Position numbers and translations under genes: made by a program. The notes beneath the pieces were generated by a model, which worked only from the letters and a program-made list of their open reading frames with translations, was not told the DNA's origin and made no database searches. From an uncultured Actinomycetota bacterium (GTDB lineage Bacteria > Actinomycetota > Actinomycetes > Actinomycetales > Microbacteriaceae), in NCBI GenBank assembly GCA_963756375.1, contig CAVWNJ010000005.1, positions 1,640,440 to 1,704,439 on the forward strand: a stretch of 64,000 nucleotides of DNA, given 5' to 3'. This document shows, one piece after another, positions 15,572 to 33,418 of this stretch (positions are counted from its first letter, which is position 1; every line of letters starts with the position of its first letter).

Positions 15572-16225
15572 TCACCGCACGGTGATGCGCCCCTGCTCCC
15601 ACAGGAGCACGGCAGACACCCTCGGGTTGGATTGTTCGTCGTCGTCGAGTCCGAGCGCCGCGAACAGGCGGCCGATCATCGTCTCGGCGGCACGCACAGT
15701 GGTGCCCCGCTGCTCCGCGACCGCTCGCGTGGATGCGCCTGCCGCGAGCATCCGCAGCACCTCGGCCTGGGCGAGCGTCACCGACCAGGTTCCGCTCGCG
15801 TCGATGGGGGCGGTGTTGACCCGTTGATGCCCGGCGATGGCCTGCCGCACGGCGTCGCCGAGTTCGTCGACCGCACGCAATTGGGACTTCACGAGGTAGA
15901 TCACCCCGGTCGGCAGCACGGCGGCGTCGTCGATCGCAAGCTCCGGCGACCGGTGCGAGGTGAGCACGACAAGACCCACCCAGGGGTAGTCGTGGCTGAT
16001 CCGCTGCAGAAGGGTCGCACCGGATCCGCCCGGTCCGAAGTTCAGGTCGGACACGATCGCGTGCGGGTCGATCTCGTCGACCAGCTGCAGCGCTGTGGTG
16101 ACGTCGGCGGCGGTCTCCACCTCGAAGCCCTGCGAACGCAGGCCGTCCCCGACGAGCGACACCGTGAAGGCGTCGTCATCGGCGACCACCACGCGCAGCG
16201 CCGTTCGATCTCCGGTCATGCTCAT
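15572..16225 (-). CDS. response regulator with C-terminal LuxR-type HTH
   Basis: 217 aa with a receiver-like N-terminus and the LuxR HTH (TLAQAEVLRMLAAGASTRAVAEQRGTTVRAAETMI). ATGA overlap with the upstream kinase. Confidence 0.75.
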   Translation of the reverse strand: MSMTGDRTALRVVVADDDAFTVSLVGDGLRSQGFEVETAADVTTALQLVDEIDPHAIVSDLNFGPGGSGATLLQRISHDYPWVGLVVLTSHRSPELAIDDAAVLPTGVIYLVKSQLRAVDELGDAVRQAIAGHQRVNTAPIDASGTWSVTLAQAEVLRMLAAGASTRAVAEQRGTTVRAAETMIGRLFAALGLDDDEQSNPRVSAVLLWEQGRITVR

Positions 16226-18501
16226 CGCGCGGCACCCTCGAGCGCTGTCGCAACCGTTCGGAGGAGATCGGTCGAGGTGAAGGGTTTGGAGAGGAATGCC
16301 CGGATGCCCGGGAACGCGTCACGCTTGGCGTTGCGACTGGTGCTGAGCCCGCTGGCCACGATGATCGGAAGGGCGGGGTGCCGTTCGGCCAGGTACGCGG
16401 CGAGTGCGGCGCCATCCATCACCGGCATCATCACGTCGGTGAAGACGAGGTCGATGGGCGCCGCATCCGATTCCACGAGCGAGATGGCCTCCTCGCCATG
16501 GCCTGCACCGAGCGTCGTGTAGCCGTGCGCCTCGAGGGACTTGCGCACCACCTGCCGGATGGCGGTCTCGTCGTCGACGACGAGGATGCGCTGGCCACGA
16601 CCGATCGGAATCGACGCGCCGTCATCGACCGGATGCTCGGCGAGCGCGCGGCCGTCGCCGGACGCCGGGAGGTGGACGAGGAATCTCGACCCATTTCCGG
16701 GCTCGCTGTAGGCCTGCAGTTGTCCGCCATGGCTCCGGATGATCCCGACCGACGTCGCGAGCCCGAGCCCGGTGCCCTCTCCCTGCGATTTGGTGGTGAA
16801 GAACGGCTCGAAGATGCGGCTCATCTCGTCTTGCGGGATTCCCACGCCGGAGTCTTCGACCTCGAGTCGGATGTAGCTGCCCGGGACCAGCTCGGCATCG
16901 ATGGGGGTATGAACCGCAGAGACCACGACATTCCTCGCCGACACGAGGAGTCGACCGCCGTCGGGCATCGCGTCGCGCGCGTTGATGACGAGGTTCATGA
17001 GCACCTGCAGGATCTGCGTCGGGTCACCCGTGATCGGCAGGAGGCGATCATCCGATTCGACCGACCAGTCGATACCGGCGGGAACGGTGGTGCGACAGAA
17101 CTCGCTGACCTCCTGCAGCACCGTGACGAGATCGATCGGCAGCCGGCGCCCCTCCATTCCGCTCGCGAAGGACAGCACCTGGCGGATCATGTCCGCCCCC
17201 CGCTTGACGCTCGCCTCCATCGTGGAGAGCAACTGCGCGCGCATGGGATCAGACTCACCGGCAGCGAGGAGCTGCACCGACATGAGCACGGGAGTGAGCA
17301 CATTGTTGAGATCGTGGGCGACGCCGCTGGCCAGGTTTCCGAGGCTCTCCATGCGCTGCGCCCGCACCTGCAGTTCGTCCCGCCGTCGCTGCTGAGTCAC
17401 ATCGGTGCTCACGGTGAGGATCTTCTCGGGTTGTCCCTCCTGGCCGCTGATGAGCGTCCAGGAGGAGTTGACGACGATTCGTCGCCCCGAGCGGTGCCTC
17501 TGCTCGAGGTCACCCGACCACGCGCCGATACGTCGCACCGTCTCGATGGCGTCGGCGAGTTCGTTGGCGTCGGCGAACACGGCATCGTGAGCGGACAGCG
17601 CGATTGCTTCGTCATGGGTGTAGCCGTAGAGAGTTTCGGCCGCGGCATTCCAGAATTCGATGCTGTCGTCGAGTCTGCGCACGACGATCGCGTCTCGAGC
17701 GAGGTTCAGCAGGGCCGCCTGCGCCTCGATACGGCCAGCGCTCTCCTCGAGCGCCCGCCGCGACATCTCCTGCTCGGTGACGTTCTTGAGGTAGACGGTC
17801 AGCCCGCCCTCCGTCGGGTACGCGGTGATGTCGAGCCAGGCGTCGAGCCGCTCGATGTATTGCAGAACCTCGACGGTTTCCTGCGTCTCGACGGCGCGCC
17901 GGTATGCCGCCGCGTAGTCGGATCCGTGCGCGGTCGGCACGACGTCCCACAGCACGTTTCCGATCAGATCCAGCGCCGAGAGGTTCAGGATGCTCTCCGC
18001 GCCGGGATTCATGTAGGTGATGATCCAGTCGGCATCGAACATCAGGACGCCATCGCTGATGCGGTTGAGCGCTTCGCCAAGGGTGCGTTCGACGGTGCCT
18101 CGCGCCTCCTCGGCGGCGAGCAGGGCACCTATGTCGAAGAATGCGCCCTGGACACCGACGATCTTGCCGGACGCATCGCGGTGGGCCTCGCCCATGGTGC
18201 GCATCCGCACGACTTCTCCGCCCGGAACCGTGAAGTCGCGACGGTGGTCGAACGGGGTGCCGTCGAATTTGCTGATCGAGTCGAGGATGGACCTCTGATC
18301 GTGTTCCGGATACCGGTCGATGGCATTCCTGCTCGACTCCTCGGCCGGATATCCGAGCATCGCGCTGAGCTCTTCGGTCCAGGTCACATGGCCGGTCGCG
18401 AGGTCGATGTACCAGCCCCCGAATCGCGCCCGCTCCCCCGCCATGCGCAGGAGTTGGTCGCGGTCACCCGGCCACGGGGTGCGCGAGGGCGCTTCGGTCA
18501 T
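16222..18501 (-). CDS. PAS-domain hybrid sensor histidine kinase / response regulator
   Basis: 759 aa with PAS repeats, HisKA (SHDLNNVLTP) and HATPase (GTGLGLA) regions, and a C-terminal receiver domain (ILVVDDE...DVMMP). Confidence 0.85.
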   Translation of the reverse strand: MTEAPSRTPWPGDRDQLLRMAGERARFGGWYIDLATGHVTWTEELSAMLGYPAEESSRNAIDRYPEHDQRSILDSISKFDGTPFDHRRDFTVPGGEVVRMRTMGEAHRDASGKIVGVQGAFFDIGALLAAEEARGTVERTLGEALNRISDGVLMFDADWIITYMNPGAESILNLSALDLIGNVLWDVVPTAHGSDYAAAYRRAVETQETVEVLQYIERLDAWLDITAYPTEGGLTVYLKNVTEQEMSRRALEESAGRIEAQAALLNLARDAIVVRRLDDSIEFWNAAAETLYGYTHDEAIALSAHDAVFADANELADAIETVRRIGAWSGDLEQRHRSGRRIVVNSSWTLISGQEGQPEKILTVSTDVTQQRRRDELQVRAQRMESLGNLASGVAHDLNNVLTPVLMSVQLLAAGESDPMRAQLLSTMEASVKRGADMIRQVLSFASGMEGRRLPIDLVTVLQEVSEFCRTTVPAGIDWSVESDDRLLPITGDPTQILQVLMNLVINARDAMPDGGRLLVSARNVVVSAVHTPIDAELVPGSYIRLEVEDSGVGIPQDEMSRIFEPFFTTKSQGEGTGLGLATSVGIIRSHGGQLQAYSEPGNGSRFLVHLPASGDGRALAEHPVDDGASIPIGRGQRILVVDDETAIRQVVRKSLEAHGYTTLGAGHGEEAISLVESDAAPIDLVFTDVMMPVMDGAALAAYLAERHPALPIIVASGLSTSRNAKRDAFPGIRAFLSKPFTSTDLLRTVATALEGAAR

Positions 18502-18510
18502 TCCGGCTCC

Positions 18511-18897
18511 TCAGCTGTCCGGGCCAGACGGCGTGGATAGGCGGGACACGGCGTCGAGCAACGCGGGGAGTTCGACCGGCTTGGCGAGGTATTCGATTCC
18601 CGCCGCTTCCGGTCCGAGTGTCGCGTGGCTGTCGCCGCTGAGAAGGATAACACCGGGCGGCCGGACCGCCTCTTTGAGCAGCGTGAGGGTCTGGGCGAGC
18701 GGCTGGCCCGGCATCCGCGCATCGAGGATGACGATGTCGATGGCGTCGGTGCGCACAATCTGCACTGCCGTCGCGCCGTCGTGTGCTTCTCGCCCCGCAT
18801 ACCCCGATCCGGTGAGCGCAGTCATCACCACGAAGCGGATCAGCGGGTCGTCATCGACGACAAGTACGGTCGGTGCCGCGCGTCCCCCGGTTGACAT
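18511..18897 (-). CDS. single-domain response regulator (CheY-like receiver)
   Basis: Receiver motifs VLVVDDD ... ILDARMP. Start chosen at MSTGG (ATG 18895-18897) inside ORF 18511..19005. Confidence 0.65.
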   Translation of the reverse strand: MSTGGRAAPTVLVVDDDPLIRFVVMTALTGSGYAGREAHDGATAVQIVRTDAIDIVILDARMPGQPLAQTLTLLKEAVRPPGVILLSGDSHATLGPEAAGIEYLAKPVELPALLDAVSRLSTPSGPDS

Positions 18898-18922
18898 GTG
18901 CTCGACTATAACGGCCGGGGTG

Positions 18923-20311
18923 TCACCTGACCGAGCCCGCTCCCATCGCAGCGAGGTCGTTCGAGGCCGAGTCGAGATGGCTGACGACCGCATCGGTGAT
19001 GGCACTCGTGCCGGAGTGCGAGCCGACGGCAGGCCCGGCCGCGTGAAAGTTGAGCGCCATAGCGCACGCGGAGAGGCGCCCGATCACGGGCCCGTGCAGC
19101 AGCGCGCGGACCTGCTCTCGAACGCGGACCTCGATGTCTTTCGCGCTCTCTGCGAGCGCACGGGTGTCCGCCCGCACGCCTTCGATCCTGTTCTCCAGCT
19201 CCCGGTTGGATCGCGCAATCCCCCCTGCGACGGAGGTCACGCTGGCACAGAAGGTGACGCCGAACGGGATCAGCGCGGCGAGCATCATGCCCGCCGAACC
19301 CGGTCGCGCGCCCGACAGACCGAGGAACACCAGCGCGCCAAGGGACCCGGCAGCGAAGGCGCCGATGGTGACGAATCGCAGACGCGTGCCGCGATCGGCG
19401 GTGAAACGGTCGAGAAACTCGAGGAGCAGCACCAATGCCCCGCTCACGGCGATCAGTGCGGCGACGGTGGCGACCGCGAACGGCCATCCGCCTTCCGGTA
19501 TCGCGATCACGAGGGCCAGCGGGCCGAGGAGCACGCTCGTCATCACGGCGACAAGTGCGGGAGACGACCCGACGAACCGGAGCGCGGCTCCGAGCGGTGC
19601 CGGTGTGGGCAAGCGGATGCCGCCGGTGGGAAGTGCTGCGCCGTCGACGATGTGCGCCGCATCCTCGGTGACCGCCGCGATGCGGTCGCCGATGGATCTG
19701 AGCTCCTCCGGGTCGAGCCGCCCGGTGAGCGCCCCCAAGCTCGACCGCAGCTCCGAGATCACGGGCACCACCGTCTCCTGCACCGTGGCGAGGAGTTGGT
19801 CACTCAGTTCCTTGATCGACGTATCCGCGCGACTGCGCTCCACATCGCGCACCCTGGTGGCGAGTTCGAGTTCGTCGAGCAGCGCACGGCGGGCATCGAT
19901 CTGAGCCGCGGAGTACACGGCGACGGGCATCCAGAGCAGCATGGTGAGCAGCCACACGACGATGCGTTCGAGGAACGCCGGCTCTGCGCCGGTCATTCCG
20001 TGGAGCACGAGGCCACCGACAACCCCCCTGATGACCGCCATAGCGGTCCAGAGCGAGATGCTCGCCCACAGGGGAATAGGTGCGGCGCGATTCCTGCGGG
20101 CGACTTCGACGATCGCCAGCGGTATGAGCACGCCGAGATGTTGGGCGATCACCGACGTCACGATCGAGGCGGGCGTTGTGCCCGCGTAGACCACTTCCGC
20201 AGCGATCGTGAGCAGAACGCTCGGGATCAGCAGGAGCACGAGGCCGAGCGGCCGGGATGCCCAGCGGCTGCCGAGGGCAGCGCGGATACTCAGGGGCATG
20301 TCACCCACCAT
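18923..20311 (-). CDS. multi-pass membrane protein of unknown function, first gene of the signalling operon (putative sensor/accessory)
   Basis: 462 aa with many TM helices and a central coiled-coil-like segment. No recognisable catalytic motif. Confidence 0.5.
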   Translation of the reverse strand: MVGDMPLSIRAALGSRWASRPLGLVLLLIPSVLLTIAAEVVYAGTTPASIVTSVIAQHLGVLIPLAIVEVARRNRAAPIPLWASISLWTAMAVIRGVVGGLVLHGMTGAEPAFLERIVVWLLTMLLWMPVAVYSAAQIDARRALLDELELATRVRDVERSRADTSIKELSDQLLATVQETVVPVISELRSSLGALTGRLDPEELRSIGDRIAAVTEDAAHIVDGAALPTGGIRLPTPAPLGAALRFVGSSPALVAVMTSVLLGPLALVIAIPEGGWPFAVATVAALIAVSGALVLLLEFLDRFTADRGTRLRFVTIGAFAAGSLGALVFLGLSGARPGSAGMMLAALIPFGVTFCASVTSVAGGIARSNRELENRIEGVRADTRALAESAKDIEVRVREQVRALLHGPVIGRLSACAMALNFHAAGPAVGSHSGTSAITDAVVSHLDSASNDLAAMGAGSVR

Positions 20312-20357: not shown

Positions 20358-20407
20358 AATTTCGGCCGTTCCCGTCTTCCCCGAAACTTGCGGGAACGGC
20401 CGAAATT
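20358..20407. other. 17-bp perfect inverted repeat (aatttcggccgttcccg ... cgggaacggccgaaatt) with a 16-nt loop, 47 nt upstream of the signalling operon
   Basis: Seen directly in the sequence. Either an operator or leader structure, or the distal terminator of the LLM gene. Confidence 0.5.
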
Positions 20408-22773: not shown

Positions 22774-23766
22774 ATGATCCGGCTGAAGGAACTCACCAAG
22801 GTGTACGGCACGACCACCGTGCTCGACCGACTCGACTTCTCGGTCGAGAGCGGCGAGATCTTCGCGGTGGTCGGCCCCAGTGGCGCGGGCAAGAGCACCC
22901 TCGCCGGCTGCATCACCCTGCTCGAGCAGCCGACATCCGGTTCGGTCATCGTGAACGGCGATGACCTGTCCCACCTCAGCACAGCGCAATTGCGCATCGC
23001 GCGTCGCCGCATCGGAACGATCTTTCAGCACGACGGCCTGTTCTCGAGGCGCTCAGCGGCGAAGAACGTGGCGCTTCCGCTCGAATACCTCGGCGTGACC
23101 CCCGCCGAGACGAAGCGGCGGGTCGGCGAACTTCTCGACCGCGTGGGACTCGCCGACAAAGCGGGTCACTACCCACACCAGCTCTCCGGCGGTCAGCGCC
23201 AGCGGGTCGGCATCGCCCGCGCGCTCGCACTGCGCCCCTCGGTGCTCATCGCGGATGAAGCCACCAGCGGGCTCGACCCGGACTCCACGGCATCCATCGT
23301 GGCCCTGCTCAAGGAGCTGCGGCTCGACCTCGACCTCGCCATCGTCTTCATCAGCCACGAGATGGACACCGTGCTTTCGGTGGCCGACCGCGTCGCCCGC
23401 CTCGACCGGGGTCGCATCGTCGAGCAGGGCGCGCTCGACACCCTGCTGCGGGATGCGAACAGCGAGCTCGGGCGAGCCCTGCACCCCCGACGTGCCCACG
23501 AAACCGCACGGACCGATGAGACCTCGTGGTTCGTGAGCTACGGATCTGCGGATGTTCCGACCGACTGGATAGCGCGGGCGTCGGTGTCGCTCGGCTCCCC
23601 CGTGAGCCTGCTCGGTGCCTCGGTTCAGCGCATCCACGGCTCGACCGTCGGGCACGCCACCGTGAGCGTCACCGACCCCGACCACGCTCGCGTGCGGGAG
23701 ATTTTCGCGGCCCTCGGCCTCGACGCCCGGCTCGAAGAACCCACCCGACTGGAGACCGCGCGATGA
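22774..23766 (+). CDS. metN: methionine-type ABC transporter ATP-binding protein with C-terminal NIL domain
   Basis: Walker A GPSGAGKST, signature LSGGQRQR, Walker B LIADEATSGLD, plus a C-terminal NIL-like extension. Confidence 0.85.
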   Translation: MIRLKELTKVYGTTTVLDRLDFSVESGEIFAVVGPSGAGKSTLAGCITLLEQPTSGSVIVNGDDLSHLSTAQLRIARRRIGTIFQHDGLFSRRSAAKNVALPLEYLGVTPAETKRRVGELLDRVGLADKAGHYPHQLSGGQRQRVGIARALALRPSVLIADEATSGLDPDSTASIVALLKELRLDLDLAIVFISHEMDTVLSVADRVARLDRGRIVEQGALDTLLRDANSELGRALHPRRAHETARTDETSWFVSYGSADVPTDWIARASVSLGSPVSLLGASVQRIHGSTVGHATVSVTDPDHARVREIFAALGLDARLEEPTRLETAR

Positions 23767-24473
23767 TCATCCACGCCGCGAACGTTCCCCTGCCGGAGAT
23801 TCCCGCTCTGCTTCTTCCCGCCCTCGTCGACACCCTCACCATGGTGGGCATCGTCATGGTGATCGTCGTCGCAGTCGGAATCCCCCTCGGCGCGATCATC
23901 CACAACCTCGCCCCGGGCGGTCTGTTCGCGAAGCCCCGCCTGCACACCCTGCTCAGCTGGATCGTGAGCGTGGGGCGGTCGCTGCCGTTCCTCATTCTGA
24001 TGGCGTCGATCGTGCCCTTCACCCGCTTCATCACCGGCACCAACATCGGCATCGCCGCGGCCGTCGTGCCGATGTCGATCGCCGGCATCGCGTTCTTCAC
24101 CCGGATCGTGGAGAACTCGCTGCGCGCCGTGCCGCCGTCGCTCGCCCAGGTGGCGAAGGCGAGCGGCGCATCCACCCTGCAGATCGTGCTCACCGCACAG
24201 CTCGCGGAGGCGGTGCCGTCGATTCTCGGCGGGGTCACCATCAACACGATCGCGATGATCGAGTACTCGGCCATCGCCGGAACCATCGGCGCGGGCGGTG
24301 TCGGCTATGTGGCCGTCACCTACGGGTATCAGCGGTTCGACCACGGGGTGATGATCGCCACGATCATCCTGCTCGTCGCCCTCGTCGCCACCGTGCAGAA
24401 GCTCGGCGACACCGCCGTTCGTTTCACCACCCCGCACGCACGCACCGCGATGCGCGTGACCCAGCCCGCGTAA
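23763..24473 (+). CDS. metI: methionine-type ABC transporter permease
   Basis: 236 aa, 5 TM, MetI-like. ATGA overlap with metN. Confidence 0.85.
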   Translation: MIIHAANVPLPEIPALLLPALVDTLTMVGIVMVIVVAVGIPLGAIIHNLAPGGLFAKPRLHTLLSWIVSVGRSLPFLILMASIVPFTRFITGTNIGIAAAVVPMSIAGIAFFTRIVENSLRAVPPSLAQVAKASGASTLQIVLTAQLAEAVPSILGGVTINTIAMIEYSAIAGTIGAGGVGYVAVTYGYQRFDHGVMIATIILLVALVATVQKLGDTAVRFTTPHARTAMRVTQPA

Positions 24474-24512
24474 CCACTCCCCCAGCACACCACCTTTAAG
24501 GAGAACTCCGTC

Positions 24513-25433
24513 ATGACACAGCAGATCGACACCCCCACCGGCCCGCCGACCCCCTCCGAGCACGGTTTCGAGCTTCGCGCCAAGCGTCGCTGGCCCTGGG
24601 TGGTGGGCGGAGCGCTCGCGCTCGTCGCCGTCGCCGCAGCAGTGGTGATCCCGCTGGTGAACCCCACCAAGTCGGCGAACCTGATCCCAGGGGCCACCCT
24701 GTTGGTCGCCACGGCGGAGGGCAACGCCTCGGAGCAGGCCCTCGTGCAGTTCGTCGCCGACGAGGTGGCGCCGCGCTATGGCATCACGGTCGCGTTCACC
24801 GGGCTCTCCGACAGCAACACCATCAACCGCGCCGTGAGCGAGGGCGAGGTCGCGGCCACGGTCTACCAGCACAAGCTCTGGCTGAGTCAGGTGCTCGAGT
24901 CGAACCCCGACTTCCGCGAGACGGCCGCGACTCCGGTATTCCGCTGGGGCTTCGGACTCTGGAGCGACAAGTACTCCTCGGTCGACCAGATTCCGGATGG
25001 CGCCACCATCTCGCTGTACTCAGACCCGGCCAACGAGGCTCAGGGCCTCTGGGTGCTGGAGCGCGCGGGGCTGATCACCCTCGATCCGAGCATCGACAAG
25101 GCCTTCGCCACCCAGAAGGACATCATCGAGAATCCGAAGAACATCTCGTTCACCCTGCTCGACTTCGCAGCGCAGTCGCGCGCGCTGCCGGACATCGACG
25201 CCGCCGTGGGCTACACCGAGTACTACCTGGCAGCGCAGATCCCGCTCGAGAAGCAGATCTTCGCTCCCGCCGCCCCCGATGCGTTCGCCGGCCAGCTCAC
25301 CATCGGATCCGACTACGCCGACAGCGACAACATCCAGAAGCTCGTCGCCGCCTTCCAGGACCCGGCGGTGCAGAACTTCCTCGCCACCGATCCGTCGGTG
25401 AAGGGCATCCTGCTGCCGCTCGACGCGAAATAG
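24513..25433 (+). CDS. metQ: MetQ/NlpA family substrate-binding lipoprotein
   Basis: 306 aa with an N-terminal TM/signal segment and an NlpA-family fold. RBS aaggaga upstream. Confidence 0.8.
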   Translation: MTQQIDTPTGPPTPSEHGFELRAKRRWPWVVGGALALVAVAAAVVIPLVNPTKSANLIPGATLLVATAEGNASEQALVQFVADEVAPRYGITVAFTGLSDSNTINRAVSEGEVAATVYQHKLWLSQVLESNPDFRETAATPVFRWGFGLWSDKYSSVDQIPDGATISLYSDPANEAQGLWVLERAGLITLDPSIDKAFATQKDIIENPKNISFTLLDFAAQSRALPDIDAAVGYTEYYLAAQIPLEKQIFAPAAPDAFAGQLTIGSDYADSDNIQKLVAAFQDPAVQNFLATDPSVKGILLPLDAK

Positions 25434-25448
25434 TCGCACTGCATCACC

Positions 25449-25485
25449 ATGAACGCCCCCGCGCTTCTCGCGCGGGGGCGTTCAT
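25449..25485. terminator. perfect 16-bp stem / 5-nt loop hairpin (atgaacgcccccgcgc-ttctc-gcgcgggggcgttcat) between convergent metQ and the ABM gene
   Basis: Seen directly in the sequence. Confidence 0.7.
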
Positions 25486-25934: not shown

Positions 25935-26522
25935 ATGCACGACCGCAGCACTTCCCCGCCCGACGTGACCGGGTGCGCTCTTCTTGTCGGAGGCCGGCCG
26001 TGCCAGACCCCGATCGACCCCGACTCGCCCATCGCTCTCTGCACGGCTCATCTCCTCACCGCTCACGACTGGATCGTGCGCGATGTGGGTGTCACCGACC
26101 TGCTCCCCTCGCCCTGCCTCGCCTGTGGTTCTCGTCTCGGCGCCCGCTATCCGTCGGGCTGGCTATGCGCGATCTGCGAGTGGCGGCAGGGCGAGGTGCC
26201 CGGTGCGGATGTCGCGCCGCCGCGCGTCGACGTGGTCTACTACCTCCGCTTCGGCGACCGCATCAAGATCGGCACCTCCGGCAACCCGCGCCAGCGGCTC
26301 GCCGGGCTCCGCTACGACGAACTGCTCGCGTTCGAGCGCGGTGACCGCGCCCGCGAGCAGCAGCGCCATGCCCAGTTCTCCCGCCATCGCCTTGCCCGCA
26401 CCGAGTGGTTCGAGTCGCACGACGCCCTCACCCGACACGTTGGCGCGCTGAGCGCCGGGGTCGACGATCCCTGGCAGCGCTACGCCCGCTGGAAGAGCGA
26501 GGCTGCTGCGCTCGGCGGGTAG
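25935..26522 (+). CDS. GIY-YIG nuclease superfamily protein of the T5orf172/MUG113 type with an N-terminal Cys-rich zinc-finger-like region
   Basis: VYYLRFGDRIKIGTSGNPRQRLAGL ... FERGDRAREQQRHAQFSRHRLARTEWFE matches the T5orf172 signature. N-terminal CxxC...CxxC...CxxC. Phage/defence-island associated family. Confidence 0.75.
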   Translation: MHDRSTSPPDVTGCALLVGGRPCQTPIDPDSPIALCTAHLLTAHDWIVRDVGVTDLLPSPCLACGSRLGARYPSGWLCAICEWRQGEVPGADVAPPRVDVVYYLRFGDRIKIGTSGNPRQRLAGLRYDELLAFERGDRAREQQRHAQFSRHRLARTEWFESHDALTRHVGALSAGVDDPWQRYARWKSEAAALGG

Positions 26523-26738
26523 CGGCGCAACGCATCATCCGAAAGGCGCAAAGTCGCCGTCCCGAGGCATGATCCGCTCGCACTCCCCGACCCCGCTCGT
26601 GCCGTCGAGCATCCGCGAGGTGCATCCCACAGCGCCGAGGGTTGCGCCGGGCGGAGGAAGAACCGCCTATGGCCGCGCTCATAACGTTCTGGCGCGGGAC
26701 CAAGAGGAGCCGCAAAAACCGAGCGACAGGAGCTGGTC

Positions 26739-26936
26739 ATGGGCTGGATCAAATGGGCGAAGAAGATCTACGAACTCGTCAAGTACATCGGGAGCCGGGT
26801 AGGCACGTGGGGCGCAACCAAGGTCAAGAAGATGACCGCGTGGGTGTGGGCCAATAAGGGCACCATCTACACGTGGCTCGAGCGTGGTTCGACCATCGCC
26901 TGGATCGCCGGCGAGATCTACCGCCGCGTTTCCTAG
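26739..26936 (+). CDS. leaderless class IId bacteriocin of the lacticin Q / aureocin A53 family (65 aa, Trp/Lys-rich)
   Basis: MTAWVWANKGTIYTWLERGSTIAWIAGEI aligns with lacticin Q AVQWAWANKGKILDWLNAGQAIDWVVSKL and aureocin A53 SAAWKYKGKVLEWLNVGPTLEWVWQKL. No leader or double-Gly site. RBS aggag 8 nt upstream. Local GC about 57% against about 70% for the genome. Confidence 0.7.
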   Translation: MGWIKWAKKIYELVKYIGSRVGTWGATKVKKMTAWVWANKGTIYTWLERGSTIAWIAGEIYRRVS

Positions 26937-26941
26937 CGCGT

Positions 26942-26981
26942 GATTCGGTGCGGTCGGGCGTGCGTTCGACCGCACCGAATC
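26942..26981 (+). terminator. 15-bp perfect stem hairpin (gattcggtgcggtcg ... cgaccgcaccgaatc) immediately after the bacteriocin gene; likely partial terminator or attenuator before the PH-domain genes
   Basis: Seen directly in the sequence. A structural gene followed by a leaky terminator and then immunity genes is the classic bacteriocin arrangement. Confidence 0.5.
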
Positions 26982-27068
26982 AGCCTTGAGACGGTAGAGC
27001 GACGAGAGAGGAGCACGGATGATGGTAGCCATGACGATTGACGCGCCGGCAGACCCGCGGGCCGCGAG

Positions 27069-27563
27069 GTGGAGCGACCCCCGCACGTTCTCGGTCGTGG
27101 CACCCACGGCCTGGCGCCCGCCGCCCTGAAATACGAGAACATCAGGACGCTGATCCTCGCCGCCATCCTCACGCCGCTCGCTGTGGCCGCCTGTTTTCAG
27201 ATCCCCTCCCCGGGCTGGCGCATCGCGGCCTTCGTCGCCCTGGGTGTCCTCACCTTGGCGACGTTCGCGATCGACATACCGTTCGTCAACCGCTGGGAGT
27301 TTCAGAACACCACCTACACCGTCACCCGCGACACGGTCTTCATCCGTCGCGGTCTTCTCCTTCGCCGAACGACGACGATCTCCACCGCTCAGATACTCAA
27401 TGTCGAGATCGCACAGGGCCCACTCCTCCGTGCATTCGGTCTGGTGAAGGTGAAGTTCGCCTGCATCGCAGACGTCGAAAGCCTTACCGGGCTCACCCCG
27501 GAGGCGGCAGAGACGATACGCGACACCGTTCTCGATTCCCAAGGCGGAGTCGCAGATGACTGA
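27069..27563 (+). CDS. YdbS-like bacterial PH-domain (bPH_2) membrane protein
   Basis: 164 aa with two N-terminal TM helices followed by a PH-like domain. ATGA overlap with the downstream YdbT-like gene, mirroring the B. subtilis ydbS-ydbT pair. GTG start, uncertain. Confidence 0.65.
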   Translation: MERPPHVLGRGTHGLAPAALKYENIRTLILAAILTPLAVAACFQIPSPGWRIAAFVALGVLTLATFAIDIPFVNRWEFQNTTYTVTRDTVFIRRGLLLRRTTTISTAQILNVEIAQGPLLRAFGLVKVKFACIADVESLTGLTPEAAETIRDTVLDSQGGVADD

Positions 27564-29214
27564 TCTTCTCGAGGCCGCGCCAGCAGCTGCGAATCGCAGA
27601 CTCCCCAAGGCCTACCTTGGAGCGTCGTACCTCGCACACGGTGTGGCTACGCTCGGGTCCCTTGCCGGGGCCCTCGTCTTCCTCGCCAATCCCGACATCT
27701 GGCCGGGGAGATTGGCGGTCGCCGTCTTCGCGGCCTTCTTCCTGCTTCGCGTCATCGATCCGCTCTACGAGTGGGCGACGACCCGGATGACCATCACGAC
27801 CCATGACTTCCGGGTCACGTCGGGCCTGCTGCACAGGCGCACACGCAGCATCAGGTGGAGCGCTGTGCACTCCATTGAAACGACCGCACCGTGGGCGTAT
27901 CGGCTGTTCGGGTTGGTTCGAGTCCGTATCGCCCAGGGCGGGGACGGCTCAACCCAGGTGACGCTCGCTGGAATAACGACGCAATTCCGCGACGAGATCC
28001 TGGCACACTCGCCCGTACCGGACTCCGGCTCGCAGGACGAAGCATCCGGCTCGCAGTCCCGGGAGGCGGAGTCCCCCTCCGGCCGCCGGGAGATCGACGC
28101 GTCCCCCGATCCACGTGGTGAGCTCGTCTATCGCGCGTCAGTCGGTGACCTCGTGGTGGCGAGCATCCTATTCGGCCGGTTCGCGGTGGTGGCGATAGCG
28201 ATCGCCTTCGCGCTGTTCGAGCAACTCGATAATTTCGGCCTTCTCGGCATCCTCGATGCGCTCAACGGAGTGGGCGTGGCCGGACTCTCCACGATCGTGG
28301 CGATCGCCATCGTTGGCCTGGGAGTCGCCGCTAGCGTGGTTCGGTTCAGCCGACTGCAGGTACGCATTACCGGGCTTGGTGGCATCGCGGTCTCCTATGG
28401 CCTTATCGAGACCAATGACCGCGTCATCGACAGCGCCGGCGTCACGGGGGTCGTGCTCCAGCGCAACGCGCTGGAGATGATTCTCGGACGGGTTCGACTC
28501 GGGTTGCTCACCACCGACACCAGCCAGCAGTTCGGATCGAACCTTCTGCTCCCGTCACTGCCGCGCAACACGGTCAAGACAATCCTGGACGCCGGATTCA
28601 GAGATCGCGTGCCGGCTGAGACCCTCGCCTCACGACGAGGTCATCCCGTGCGGTCGATCATTGCCTTCTCCGCGGTCACCTCTGTTGCGGCCGGTGCCGG
28701 CTGGTGGATGCACGGGCTCGGCATGCCGCTCGGACTTGCAGCGGTCGGGGCCCTTGCTCTGTGGGCCATCATCGCCACGTCTGCCCGCCCGTTTGTCACC
28801 ACACTCCGCTACGACGTAGACGCGCAGCATGTGGCGCTTCGCACGAGCTTCATCAAGGAGCGCGACGTTTACCTCGACTCCCTTTCAATTCATCTCGTCA
28901 CGAGCACCGCTGTGCGAAACCGCTCGCGCTTTGCCACCGTGCACTACTACGCAGGCGAACCACACCAGCGGGGGTCGGTGTGGTTCTCCGAGGCGAACCT
29001 CGACGCGCTCCAGGCGCAGCTCGGCGAGCGAGACCGGCGAGCAGCCACCCTCCGGTCCTCTCGCGACGCGGCGCGACAGCGACGTCTGAGCGCCGACTCC
29101 CTAGGAGACGTCGACGACGCCAGCTTTGGCGGCTCGCACGAGAACCTGCACGCGGTCCCTGACGTTCCACTTCGTCATGATCCGCCGCAGGTGCGACTTG
29201 ACCGTCGCCTCTGA
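27556..29214 (+). CDS. YdbT-like membrane protein with three bacterial PH (bPH_2) repeats
   Basis: 552 aa with alternating TM hairpins and three PH-like repeats (e.g. RMTITTHDFRVTSGLLHRRTRSIRWSAVHSIE). Architecture matches YdbT. Confidence 0.75.
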   Translation: MTDLLEAAPAAANRRLPKAYLGASYLAHGVATLGSLAGALVFLANPDIWPGRLAVAVFAAFFLLRVIDPLYEWATTRMTITTHDFRVTSGLLHRRTRSIRWSAVHSIETTAPWAYRLFGLVRVRIAQGGDGSTQVTLAGITTQFRDEILAHSPVPDSGSQDEASGSQSREAESPSGRREIDASPDPRGELVYRASVGDLVVASILFGRFAVVAIAIAFALFEQLDNFGLLGILDALNGVGVAGLSTIVAIAIVGLGVAASVVRFSRLQVRITGLGGIAVSYGLIETNDRVIDSAGVTGVVLQRNALEMILGRVRLGLLTTDTSQQFGSNLLLPSLPRNTVKTILDAGFRDRVPAETLASRRGHPVRSIIAFSAVTSVAAGAGWWMHGLGMPLGLAAVGALALWAIIATSARPFVTTLRYDVDAQHVALRTSFIKERDVYLDSLSIHLVTSTAVRNRSRFATVHYYAGEPHQRGSVWFSEANLDALQAQLGERDRRAATLRSSRDAARQRRLSADSLGDVDDASFGGSHENLHAVPDVPLRHDPPQVRLDRRL

Positions 29215-29763
29215 CAGAAAGAGTTCTTCGGCGATCTCGGCGTTGGACATCCCACGGGCGAGCAATTCCACGACGTTGCTCTCGCGCGGGGATATCTGCT
29301 CCGACTCCTGAAGCGGAACAGAGGCGGGTGCAGGGGCGTGCGAGGCGACCGAGCGCACGAGTTCGCGAGCGATCCCGGGCGAGAGCACGTACCCGCCTTC
29401 GTGCACGCTTCTGATGGCCGCAACGATCTGTTCCGGCTCGGTGTCCTTCACGAGGAAACCGACCGCGCCCGCCCTCAGCGCGGCGATCACTGATTCATCG
29501 GAGCCGAACGTCGTGACGGCGATGACCCGGATGCCCGGCGAACGCTCTGCGAGCTGACCGATCGCGGTGATCCCGTCGCCGCCGGGCATGCGGATGTCCA
29601 TGAGCACGACATCCGGCTCGATGGCACGGCAGAGGCTGATGGCGGTCGGGCCATCCGGAGCCTCGCCGACGACGGTCATATCGCGAGCGGACTCGACGAA
29701 GATGGCGAGGGCGCGCCTGACGAGAGCCTCATCGTCAACGATGACCACTCTTACGTCGGACAT
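29101..29763 (-). CDS. NarL/FixJ-family response regulator with LuxR HTH
   Basis: 220 aa with receiver motifs ([17 protein letters not shown], KD) and a C-terminal LuxR HTH ([35 protein letters not shown]). Confidence 0.85.
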   Translation of the reverse strand: [220 protein letters not shown]

Positions 29764-29873: not shown

Positions 29874-31148
29874 ATGAGAACGAATCACCGAGGAGCCAGC
29901 CGTGTTCACCTTCCTGCCATACGCCAACGATTCCAAGTCGATCTGGGGCGTTTTCTGCCAGTGGCTCAAAATCTGCCGTCCCTGACCCTTCGGCGCCCGC
30001 CGTCCGGATGGCGCGGACTCGATGGGTTCTGGCAGTTCGTTCCGCTGGCACGGCTGCTGAGGATCACGCTGTTGATCGTCGTGCCCCTCGGGGTGGTCGT
30101 CGATGGAGCACTGCGCCTCGCCGGCGAGCCTGCGGGCGGCTTCATCGAATTCGCCTTCTCGACAGCGACCAGCGGATGTCTGCTCCTGATGCTCTGGCGG
30201 CCGCCGGTTGCTGCGGTCTTTCTGGCGTCAGCCGGGTTCGTCGCGGTCGCCATCAACGAGGGGGGCGGCTATCTCACCGCCGTGACCGCGAGCGTTGGCC
30301 TGGTCGTGTACTGCTGTGCCAGGTCGTTCGCCGTGGCGTACGGTTCGATCGTCGTCGGCTGGATAGTGGTCTTCGTCGCCATCCCTCCCGGTCTCCCCCG
30401 AGGCGGTGTCGTCACGCTCTTCGTGATCGGACTCATGTCTGCGGCGGTGGGGTTCTCGCTACAGGCGATGGTCCGCCGCAATGGGGCATTGCGTGAGGCC
30501 CTGGATCTTCATGACGAGCGGCTCGACGATGAGCTTAGAGCGGAGCGCAGTCGTATAGCCGATGAGTTGCACGACATCATCGCCCACGACATCACGATCG
30601 TCGCGATGCACGCGCGCGTGCTCCAGCACACGAGTGATCCCGAAGTGCGATCCGTCTCGCAACAGGCGATCAGCAGAGCGGCCGGTCAGGCCCTGGCCGA
30701 TACCCGGCGAGTTCTCAACCTCATCCACGGGCAACAGAGCGACCCGACTCCTGCCGTGACCGGCGCACCGGGCATCCGTTCCGTCCTCCCCCAGCTTGGC
30801 GATCAGCTTCGCGCCCTCGGTGACACCGTCACGGTCTCAATGGCAAATGGTCCGGAACTCGCGAAGAGCATCGATGCGACACTCGTTCGGATGGCGCGGG
30901 AGTCGGTGACCAACATCGTGAAGCATGGGGCCACACTGCGAACGGTGCACTTCGCGTTGGAGTTCTCCCGTGACTCCGTGGACCTCCGCATCGAGAACGT
31001 GCCCTATCGAGCCGATTCCGCCACGCACGGGCAGCCGGGCTATGGGCTTGCTCGCCTTCACGAGCGCGCCGATCTTCTCGGCGGATCGTTTGCGGCGGGG
31101 CAGGACGGCGAATCGTGGATTGCGCGGATGACCCTCCCGCAAAGGTGA
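29874..31148 (+). CDS. sensor histidine kinase (HisKA_3 / NarX-type, multi-TM N-terminus)
   Basis: H-box ERSRIADELHDIIAHDITIVAMHA and a C-terminal HATPase region. Divergent from its response regulator. N-terminal start uncertain. Confidence 0.8.
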   Translation: MRTNHRGASRVHLPAIRQRFQVDLGRFLPVAQNLPSLTLRRPPSGWRGLDGFWQFVPLARLLRITLLIVVPLGVVVDGALRLAGEPAGGFIEFAFSTATSGCLLLMLWRPPVAAVFLASAGFVAVAINEGGGYLTAVTASVGLVVYCCARSFAVAYGSIVVGWIVVFVAIPPGLPRGGVVTLFVIGLMSAAVGFSLQAMVRRNGALREALDLHDERLDDELRAERSRIADELHDIIAHDITIVAMHARVLQHTSDPEVRSVSQQAISRAAGQALADTRRVLNLIHGQQSDPTPAVTGAPGIRSVLPQLGDQLRALGDTVTVSMANGPELAKSIDATLVRMARESVTNIVKHGATLRTVHFALEFSRDSVDLRIENVPYRADSATHGQPGYGLARLHERADLLGGSFAAGQDGESWIARMTLPQR

Positions 31149-33285: not shown

Positions 33286-33358
33286 GTGACCCCAACGGGA
33301 TTCGAACCCGTGTTACCGCCGTGAGAGGGCAGCGTACTAGGCCGCTATACGATGGGGC
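33286..33358 (-). tRNA. tRNA-Glu (anticodon CTC)
   Basis: Minus-strand sequence GGCCCCATCGTATAGCGGCCTAGTACGCTGCCCTCTCACGGCGGTAACACGGGTTCGAATCCCGTTGGGGTCA folds as a cloverleaf with anticodon loop CT-CTC-AC. The GGTTCGAATCC T-loop is present. CCA is not encoded. Confidence 0.85.
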
Positions 33359-33418
33359 CGTAAGCAACCTGACGAGTATGCCACACCAAGTACGTCGCCC
33401 GCCAATCGAGCGAAACGG

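What the first reader, a model, noticed from the sequence alone, without database searches (positions are those of the whole stretch)
26739..26936. Leaderless lacticin Q / aureocin A53-family bacteriocin gene in a high-GC actinobacterial chromosome
The 65-aa Trp/Lys-rich product has no leader or processing site. Its C-terminal two-thirds aligns closely with lacticin Q and aureocin A53 (WxWANKGxIxxWLxxGxxIxWI). Members of this family are described almost entirely from Firmicutes. A copy in a roughly 70%-GC actinobacterium, with local GC of about 57% and sitting in an island next to tRNA-Glu, would be an unusual and probably horizontally acquired antimicrobial peptide. Its N-terminal half carries an insertion of about 12 aa relative to the known members, so it may be a distinct subfamily.
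Basis: partly seen in the sequence, partly recalled or inferred. Interest (0 to 1): 0.85.

Follow-up and report, generated by a model that had tools for sequence, protein, structure and literature searches.

The report
Known-family leaderless bacteriocin gene in Microbacterium
The 65-residue gene is real and does encode a leaderless antimicrobial peptide of the aureocin A53 / lacticin Q family, but close copies in Microbacterium are already annotated as such in RefSeq and listed in a 2024 genome-mining paper, so it is an ordinary, already catalogued find.

Summary
The ORF at 26739-26936 (+) is real. It has an AGGAG ribosome-binding site, a conserved hairpin straight after the stop codon, and it is under purifying selection. 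[quoted passage not shown] It matches lacticin Q and epidermicin NI01 in the PDB by sequence. A confident AlphaFold model (pLDDT 90) has epidermicin and aureocin A53 as its two best PDB fold matches.

The next two genes encode a YdbS/YdbT-like pair of bacterial PH-domain membrane proteins. Such pairs are reported as needed for bacteriocin production or export in the aureocin A53, lacticin Q and enterocin DD14 clusters.

The interpretation around the gene is weaker:
- Members of the same 90% cluster are named in RefSeq for Microbacterium aurantiacum and Microbacterium sp. LTA6.
- WP_102193816.1 is listed in Hourigan et al. 2024, which reports 97 such peptides in Actinomycetota.
- The low GC of the gene (59.6%) comes from its Lys/Trp/Ile-rich composition. 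Its GC3 is 0.88, like the host's.
- tRNA-Glu lies 6.3 kb and six genes away, with no integrase and no att repeat.

What remains mildly interesting is a rare, untested 65-66-residue long form. It travels as a five-gene cassette with no ABC transporter.

The parts
26682..26687 (+). Candidate -10 hexamer (TAACGT, TAnnnT type) of the peptide promoter. Inferred only.
   Evidence: It lies 51 nt upstream of the ATG. M. aurantiacum (L005) has TAGCTT 50 nt upstream of its ATG, in an otherwise diverged upstream region. The surrounding block is conserved between the window and L002. The sigma-70 consensus scan found nothing.
26728..26732 (+). Ribosome-binding site AGGAG, 6 nt before the ATG.
   Evidence: Read directly from the sequence. 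It is invariant in the window and L001-L003. L005 has GGAG at the same place.
26739..26936 (+). Structural gene for the 65-aa leaderless peptide of the aureocin A53 / lacticin Q family (long form).
   Evidence: Purifying selection: 9 synonymous and 0 non-synonymous differences against L002, and dN/dS 0.16 against L005.
26941..26982 (+). Stem-loop with perfect 16-nt arms straight after the stop codon and no U-tract. Probably a terminator, attenuator or mRNA-stabilising hairpin between the peptide gene and the export genes.
   Evidence: Folding gives -39.8 kcal/mol, z -5.4. The inverted repeat is I25. The hairpin is kept in five loci with compensatory changes.
27022..27563 (+). YdbS-like small membrane protein with 2 TM segments and 1 bPH_2 domain. 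It is 180 aa in relatives. In this window a missing base between 27058 and 27059 breaks the frame, leaving a 164-aa ORF from GTG 27069.
   Evidence: Pfam bPH_2 E 3e-12. TM segments. Frameshift. 180-aa gene calls in L001 and L003.
27556..29214 (+). YdbT-like large membrane protein of 552 aa. One bPH_2 domain is detected. The three TM-rich regions are spaced as expected for TM-pair-plus-PH repeats.
   Evidence: Pfam bPH_2 E 2.9e-12. Hydropathy. Its only homologues found belong to the same narrow clade and include proteins from contigs shown to carry the peptide (L002, Microbacterium sp. LTA6).
29101..29763 (-). NarL/LuxR-type response regulator, linked to the cassette.
   Evidence: Response_reg plus GerE domains. 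It is conserved next to the module in L005, L006 and L007, which sit in a different genomic context.
29874..31148 (+). HisKA_3 histidine kinase with a multi-TM N-terminus. The start may be at 29961, as called in L001.
   Evidence: HisKA_3 E 2e-10. TM segments. It is conserved with the module in L005 and L007.

Best explanation
The gene encodes a leaderless, unmodified class IId bacteriocin of the aureocin A53 / lacticin Q / epidermicin NI01 family. The organism is most likely a Microbacterium.

**Proposed mechanism (inferred).**
- The peptide is made in active form, with no leader and no processing.
- It folds into a compact Trp-rich cationic helical bundle. Helix 1 is lengthened and amphipathic (residues 2-19), and an 8-residue insert follows it.
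- The two co-oriented YdbS/YdbT-like PH-domain membrane proteins encoded immediately downstream carry it out of the cell.
- It kills competing Gram-positive bacteria by receptor-independent membrane permeabilisation.

The adjacent response regulator and intramembrane-type histidine kinase travel with the cassette. They probably control production or self-protection.

**Shown here:** the ORF, family homology, predicted fold, purifying selection, and conservation and mobility of the cassette.

**Inferred only:** export by the PH-domain pair, the role of the two-component system, and antimicrobial activity.
For: **Family membership.**
- NCBIfam NF033881 is above its cut-off.
- The PDB sequence search hits lacticin Q, epidermicin NI01 and, weakly, aureocin A53, and nothing else.
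- In the alignment with the three solved members, M1, K31, W37, K40, W46, G50 and W55 are invariant.

**Fold.**
- AlphaFold gives pLDDT 90.3 and pTM 0.71, all helical.
- The top two Foldseek hits among 350,542 PDB chains are epidermicin 6sif (probability 0.99, target-normalised TM 0.75, rmsd 2.4 Å) and aureocin A53 2n8o (TM 0.64).
- Helix 1 is strongly amphipathic: muH 0.56, reached by only 0.3% of shuffles.

**Selection.** There are 9 synonymous and 0 non-synonymous changes against L002. dN/dS is 0.16 against M. aurantiacum.

**Gene context.**
- A YdbS/YdbT-like pair lies directly downstream.
- The homologous pairs are Orf7/Orf8 (aureocin A53), LnqC/LnqD (lacticin Q) and DdE/DdF (enterocin DD14). 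They are reported as needed for production or export (PMC8657885).
- The order peptide, ydbS, ydbT, response regulator, kinase is kept in M. aurantiacum Sa12 and Microbacterium sp. LTA6 within different flanks.

**Precedent.**
- RefSeq names cluster members as this family.
- Two synthesised actinobacterial members, arcanocin and arachnicin, are active (PMC11580447).
Against: - Pfam PF11758 is below its gathering score (21.1 against 25).
- Identity to the characterised peptides is only about 30-38% over the C-terminal two-thirds.
- No member of this long form has been tested for activity.
- No ABC transporter lies within about 13 kb on either side. The aureocin A53 and lacticin Q clusters both use one (AucEFG, LnqEF).
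- No dedicated small immunity gene was recognised.
- In this genome the ydbS-like gene carries a 1-nt deletion relative to 99%-identical relatives. If real, this could impair export.
- The genus assignment is inferred from named cluster members, not from a marker gene.
Confidence: 0.8

Rival explanations
1. The cassette is decaying in this strain. The peptide gene is intact, but the frameshifted ydbS-like gene blocks export, so no bacteriocin is released or production is silenced.
For: One base is missing between 27058 and 27059 relative to L001 and L003, which are 99% identical, and to L002. The ORF from the conserved ATG with its good RBS stops at 27129. The remainder needs a GTG start at 27069 with a poor RBS. 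The 164-aa product is seen on only one contig in the collection.
Against: Only the 16 N-terminal cytoplasmic residues would be lost. Both TM segments and the PH domain remain in frame. A single-base indel in a GC-rich run could be an assembly error. The peptide gene itself is identical to those of the relatives.
Confidence: 0.12
2. The peptide is not primarily a weapon. It could be a membrane-active signal or envelope-stress peptide, sensed and controlled by the linked two-component system.
For: A HisKA_3 kinase with a multi-TM, intramembrane-type N-terminus and a LuxR-type regulator always accompany the peptide. No ABC immunity or export system is present. There is a weak sub-threshold hit to the AMEP412 elicitor family (E 0.014).
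Against: Every characterised relative is a bacteriocin. Two-component systems commonly regulate bacteriocin loci. The AMEP412 hit is far below its cut-off (15.7 against 45 bits).
Confidence: 0.05
3. One reading: a recent horizontal acquisition from Firmicutes, integrated as a genomic island at tRNA-Glu.
For: Gene GC is 59.6% against 67.8% for the window. The five-gene module has GC 64.7%, in the lowest 5% of 4.4-kb windows. The module occupies different sites in different genomes.
Against: GC3 of the peptide gene is 0.88, like the host's. GC3 of the module genes is 0.77-0.82, far from Firmicute values. tRNA-Glu is 6.3 kb and six genes away. There is no integrase, no repeat of the tRNA 3' end and no flanking repeats. 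All close homologues of the peptide and of the YdbT-like protein come from the same narrow actinobacterial clade. Actinomycetota have their own clades of this family (PMC11580447).
Confidence: 0.03

Closest known systems
[quoted passage not shown] LTA6. WP_102193816.1 is listed in Table S1 of Hourigan et al. 2024 (PMC11580447).
   Same: They belong to the same 90% cluster at 82-83% identity. They share the long form (66 aa), the N-terminal MGW(I/L)KW, the insert after helix 1, and the five-gene cassette of peptide, ydbS-like, ydbT-like, response regulator and kinase.
   Different: Their chromosomal neighbourhood differs: AHSA1 upstream and RNase H/thiolase downstream, against metNIQ and Band_7-DoxX-tRNA-Glu here. 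The C-terminus is RRLFG against RRVS. DNA identity across the module is only about 69%.
Lacticin Q (PDB 2n8p) and lacticin Z, Lactococcus lactis
   Same: This is the best sequence match among solved structures (E 1e-5). The W-x-W-A-N-K-G-x-I-x-x-W-L-x-x-G-x-x-I-x-W core is shared. Both are leaderless, cationic and Trp-rich. A YdbS/YdbT-like pair (LnqC/LnqD) is in the cluster.
   Different: Lacticin Q is 53 aa against 65 here. It lacks the six extra N-terminal residues and the 8-residue insert. Its cluster has the LnqEF ABC transporter, absent here. It has no two-component system; lacticin Q has a TetR-type regulator (own knowledge).
Epidermicin NI01 (PDB 6sif) and aureocin A53 (PDB 2n8o), Staphylococcus
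   Same: These are the top two fold matches to the AlphaFold model, with sequence E-values of 4.6e-4 and 0.34. Aureocin A53 has the Orf7/Orf8 YdbS/YdbT-like pair, and Orf8 is needed for production.
   Different: Both are 51 aa. Aureocin A53 is plasmid-borne (pRJ9) and has the AucEFG ABC transporter, per PMC8657885. Its small immunity proteins AucIA and AucIB and the plasmid location of epidermicin NI01 are from my own knowledge. Neither an ABC transporter nor a small immunity gene was found here.
Arcanocin and arachnicin (Actinomycetota; Hourigan et al. 2024)
   Same: They are actinobacterial members of the same family, next to PH-domain proteins, and are active when chemically synthesised.
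   Different: Each is 52 aa, the classical length. The arcanocin cluster includes ABC transport genes. They come from other genera (Arcanobacterium, Arachnia).

Membership tests
Aureocin A53 / lacticin Q family (class IId leaderless bacteriocins; NCBIfam NF033881, Pfam PF11758) | The sequence matches the curated family model above its trusted cut-off. | tested here: met
   NF033881 (equivalog) scores 36.8 bits against a cut-off of 27, E 2.2e-9, over residues 26-64. Caveat: Pfam PF11758 scores 21.1 bits, below its gathering score of 25.
Aureocin A53 / lacticin Q family | Leaderless: translation starts at the first residue of the mature peptide, with no double-glycine or Sec leader. | tested here: met
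   The ATG at 26739 is the first start after the upstream stop and has an AGGAG RBS. M1 aligns with or near M1 of the classical members. The N-terminus is charged and amphipathic with no hydrophobic h-region. It contains no GG motif. Retention of formyl-Met cannot be tested here.
Aureocin A53 / lacticin Q family | Conserved Trp/Lys/Gly core (W..K......W...G....W). | tested here: met
   K31, W37, K40, W46, G50 and W55 are invariant in the alignment with lacticin Q, aureocin A53 and epidermicin.
Aureocin A53 / lacticin Q family | Compact saposin-like helical bundle. | tested here: met
   This rests on prediction only. The AlphaFold model has pLDDT 90.3 with helices at 2-19, 21-24, 26-38, 40-48 and 53-64. 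The best Foldseek PDB hits are 6sif (target-normalised TM 0.75) and 2n8o (0.64).
Aureocin A53 / lacticin Q family | Small size, about 47-54 residues. | tested here: not met
   The peptide is 65 aa, with six extra N-terminal residues and an 8-residue insert. Size is not a strict criterion: RefSeq and Hourigan et al. accept the 66-aa and 64-aa Microbacterium forms.
Aureocin A53 / lacticin Q family | A YdbS/YdbT-like PH-domain membrane protein pair in the cluster (Orf7/Orf8, LnqC/LnqD). | tested here: met
   The 164(180)-aa protein has 2 TM segments and one bPH_2 domain. The 552-aa protein is multi-TM with bPH_2. Both lie directly downstream on the same strand and are conserved in all relatives.
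Aureocin A53 / lacticin Q family | A dedicated ABC transporter for secretion or immunity (AucEFG, LnqEF). | tested here: not met
   The only ABC system within about 13 kb is the metNIQ-type importer (NlpA lipoprotein). There is none in the cassette in L005 or L007 either. This is not universal in the family (PMC11580447 discussion).
Aureocin A53 / lacticin Q family | Antimicrobial, membrane-permeabilising activity of the unmodified peptide. | not testable with these tools
   This needs peptide synthesis and inhibition assays.

The most novel reading that the evidence does not exclude
The 65-66-residue form is a distinct subfamily restricted to Microbacterium. It was found in only 1 of 185,579 species-representative genomes. 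It has a lengthened amphipathic helix 1 and a Trp-containing insert. It works as a self-contained five-gene cassette in which the YdbS/YdbT-like pair alone provides export, and perhaps immunity, without any ABC transporter. A LiaRS-like two-component system would provide control. If so, it would be a clean natural test case for ABC-independent export of leaderless bacteriocins.
Probability: 0.3. Interest if true: 0.4.

Novelty: already known. Interest (0 to 1): 0.2.

Why it matters
It matters little beyond confirming the annotation. Leaderless bacteriocins are attractive because the active peptide can be made by chemical synthesis. Actinobacterial members are a recently recognised and mostly untested pool.

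This long form has a net charge of +9 and 7 Trp residues. It has no ABC transporter in its cassette and is rare even within Microbacterium. That makes it a reasonable candidate for synthesis and for testing whether YdbS/YdbT-like proteins are sufficient for export and immunity. Its existence and family assignment are already in RefSeq and in the literature.

Tried and rejected
- **Whole-library phmmer search (1.84 billion representatives).** Only the peptide's own cluster passed. The other hit, P0002, is a low-complexity FAWGRQGSC-repeat protein and is rejected. A 65-aa query cannot reach the rest of the family at library-wide E-values, so I used a profile of the long form plus three solved members instead.
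- **Island at tRNA-Glu.** I searched for a second copy of the tRNA 3' end with up to 3 mismatches, and for direct or inverted repeats across 18-36 kb. Only chance-level short repeats turned up. Pfam scans of flanking genes found no integrase or transposase.
- **Sigma-70 promoter scan.** It found nothing, as expected for a high-GC actinobacterium.
- **Plasmid search.** A tblastn search of PLSDB with the peptide found no match.
- **Naming the organism.** Exact look-up of neighbouring proteins returned NCBI and ENA records without names. The genus is therefore inferred from named cluster members.
- **Upstream T5orf172-like gene (25935-26522).** I considered it as part of the cluster and rejected it, because it is absent from the Sa12 and LTA6 loci.
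- **Weak hits.** The M18 aminopeptidase and AMEP412 hits are far below their cut-offs.

Full report
**Observation.**
- The ATG is the first possible start after the upstream in-frame stop. AGGAG precedes it at 26728-26732.
- A perfect 16-bp-arm hairpin lies at 26941-26982, straight after the stop codon. It folds at -39.8 kcal/mol, z -5.4.
- The peptide has 7 Trp, 12 Lys/Arg against 3 Glu (no Asp), pI 10.3 and a mass of 7.6 kDa.

**Is it a real gene?** Yes.
- Three assemblies carry the identical peptide.
- One of them, L002, is about 87% identical in DNA overall. Its coding sequence differs from the window's at 9 synonymous and 0 non-synonymous sites, while the upstream spacer has diverged.
- Against the Microbacterium aurantiacum orthologue, dN/dS is 0.16.
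- The post-stop hairpin is kept in five loci with compensatory base changes.

**Family.**
- Pfam PF11758 scores 21.1 bits, just under its gathering score of 25.
- Against all PDB sequences, the only hits are lacticin Q (E 1e-5), epidermicin NI01 (4.6e-4) and aureocin A53 (0.34).
- In the alignment with these three, M1, K31, W37, K40, W46, G50 and W55 are invariant.
- AlphaFold2 on a 17-sequence family alignment gives pLDDT 90.3 and pTM 0.71. Helices lie at 2-19, 21-24, 26-38, 40-48 and 53-64.
- Foldseek against 350,542 PDB chains ranks epidermicin 6sif first (probability 0.99, target-normalised TM 0.75, rmsd 2.4 Å). Aureocin A53 2n8o is second (TM 0.64).
- E-values for such small proteins are weak. 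Still, the two top hits are exactly the family.

**The extra length.**
- The extra length is about 14 residues. Six are at the N-terminus (MGWIKW) and lengthen helix 1. Eight form an insert, G18-G25, between helix 1 and helix 2.
- Helix 1 (residues 2-19) is strongly amphipathic: muH 0.56, reached by 0.3% of shuffles.
- A 64-aa Microbacterium peptide in the supplement of Hourigan et al. has an insert at the same position.

**Context.**
- Directly downstream on the same strand lies a YdbS-like protein with 2 TM segments and one bPH_2 domain.
- Next comes a 552-aa YdbT-like protein. One bPH_2 domain is detected, and its TM-rich regions are spaced as in TM-pair-plus-PH repeats.
- Homologous pairs occur in the classical clusters: Orf7/Orf8 for aureocin A53, LnqC/LnqD for lacticin Q and DdE/DdF for enterocin DD14. 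They are reported as needed for production or export (PMC8657885).
- A LuxR-type response regulator follows on the minus strand, then a multi-TM HisKA_3 histidine kinase.

**The cassette moves.**
- The five-gene order is conserved in M. aurantiacum Sa12 (L005) and Microbacterium sp. LTA6 (L007, CP147855.1).
- Their flanks are different: AHSA1/SRPBCC upstream and RNase H/thiolase downstream.
- DNA homology between the window and L005 starts exactly at the peptide's ATG and ends inside the kinase gene.
- A third context, with a cation-efflux gene upstream, is seen for a 70%-identical peptide.
- The unit is therefore a cassette of about 4.4 kb that has moved among Microbacterium chromosomes without recognisable mobility genes.
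- The only homologues found for the YdbT-like protein belong to the same narrow clade (52-100% identity). They include the proteins from the L002 and LTA6 contigs, which carry the peptide.
- Across the relatives found, the peptide (69-88% identity) is better conserved than this partner (52-76%).

**Claims that fail.**
- *Composition.* The window is 67.8% GC and the gene 59.6%. Its GC1/GC2/GC3 are 0.41/0.50/0.88, and GC3 of flanking genes is 0.83-0.92. The low GC therefore comes from the Lys/Trp/Ile/Tyr-rich composition, not from foreign codon usage.
- *The cassette as a whole* is mildly low at 64.7% GC, with GC3 0.77-0.82, in the lowest 5% of 4.4-kb windows. That fits exchange among related actinobacteria, not a Firmicute donor.
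- *tRNA-Glu island.* The tRNA (33286-33359, minus strand) is 6.3 kb and six genes away. No second copy of its 3' end exists in the window. There are no meaningful flanking repeats and no integrase or transposase within about 13 kb.
- *Rarity in Actinobacteria.* Hourigan et al. 2024 (J Bacteriol, PMC11580447) mined 757 aureocin A53-like peptides, 97 of them from Actinomycetota including Microbacterium, Curtobacterium and Streptomyces.
  - They noted that actinobacterial peptides are on average longer and more cationic, and that PH-domain proteins are common neighbours.
  - They synthesised two active members.
  - Their Table S1 lists WP_102193816.1, the 66-aa orthologue, which is 82% identical to the window peptide.
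[quoted passage not shown] The window's exact sequence is itself in NCBI on a 2.88-Mb contig.

**What is left.**
- The long form is rare. A scan of 185,579 species-representative genomes found it only in M. aurantiacum Sa12. The 5.8-billion-protein collection holds two clusters of it.
- No member has been tested for activity.
- The cassette lacks the ABC transporter that the aureocin A53 and lacticin Q clusters use.
- In this particular genome, one base is missing between 27058 and 27059 relative to 99%-identical relatives. This shifts the frame of the ydbS-like gene. The ORF from the conserved ATG at 27022 stops at 27129, and the rest is readable only from GTG 27069. This may be an assembly error or a real lesion that compromises export.

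**Mechanism.** The membrane-permeabilising, receptor-independent mode of action is taken from established knowledge of lacticin Q (toroidal pores) and aureocin A53 (generalised membrane damage). That is my own knowledge and was not tested here. Export by the PH-domain pair is inferred from the enterocin DD14, aureocin A53 and lacticin Q genetics summarised in PMC8657885. The regulatory or immunity role of the two-component system is inferred only from its linkage to the cassette.

**Verdict.** The gene is real and the family assignment is correct. It is already annotated and catalogued, and the surrounding story of an unusual phylum, foreign GC and a tRNA island is not supported. Interest is low. 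The residual interest lies in the untested long-form subfamily and its ABC-free cassette.

Noticed in passing
window 27019-27129 and 27058/27059: One base is missing (GACCCGC-GGGCC against GACCCGCAGGGCC in L001 and L003). This frameshifts the ydbS-like gene. The 180-aa ORF of relatives is split into a 35/36-aa stub and a 164-aa ORF starting at GTG 27069. It could be an assembly error or a real inactivating lesion.
   Followed up: partly
window 25935-26522 (+): A 195-aa protein with a Cys-rich N-terminus and weak T5orf172/MUG113 (GIY-YIG-like) matches lies 216 nt upstream of the peptide gene. It is present in L001, truncated in L002 and absent from the M. aurantiacum and LTA6 loci, so it is not part of the cassette. 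Its function is unknown.
   Followed up: partly
window 29101-29214: The 3' end of the ydbT-like gene overlaps the convergent response-regulator gene by 114 nt in the window and L001. It does not in M. aurantiacum (L005). The low-complexity C-terminal tail may simply be read-through in stop-poor GC-rich DNA.
   Followed up: no
window 26739-29214 compared with relatives found: Across the relatives found, the 65-66-aa peptide is better conserved (69-88% identity) than its YdbT-like partner (52-76%).
   Followed up: partly
window 15572-19005 (-): A 758-aa hybrid PAS histidine kinase with a C-terminal receiver domain is flanked by two stand-alone receiver-domain proteins. This is unrelated to the finding.
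   Followed up: no
window 25449-25485 and 20358-20407: Perfect 16-nt and 17-nt inverted repeats lie in intergenic positions, after metQ and after the 18923-20311 gene. They are likely terminators.
   Followed up: no
window 22774-25433 (+): A methionine-type ABC importer operon (ATPase, permease, NlpA lipoprotein) lies next to a luciferase-like monooxygenase. It is the only ABC system near the bacteriocin gene and is an importer, not a candidate exporter.
   Followed up: partly
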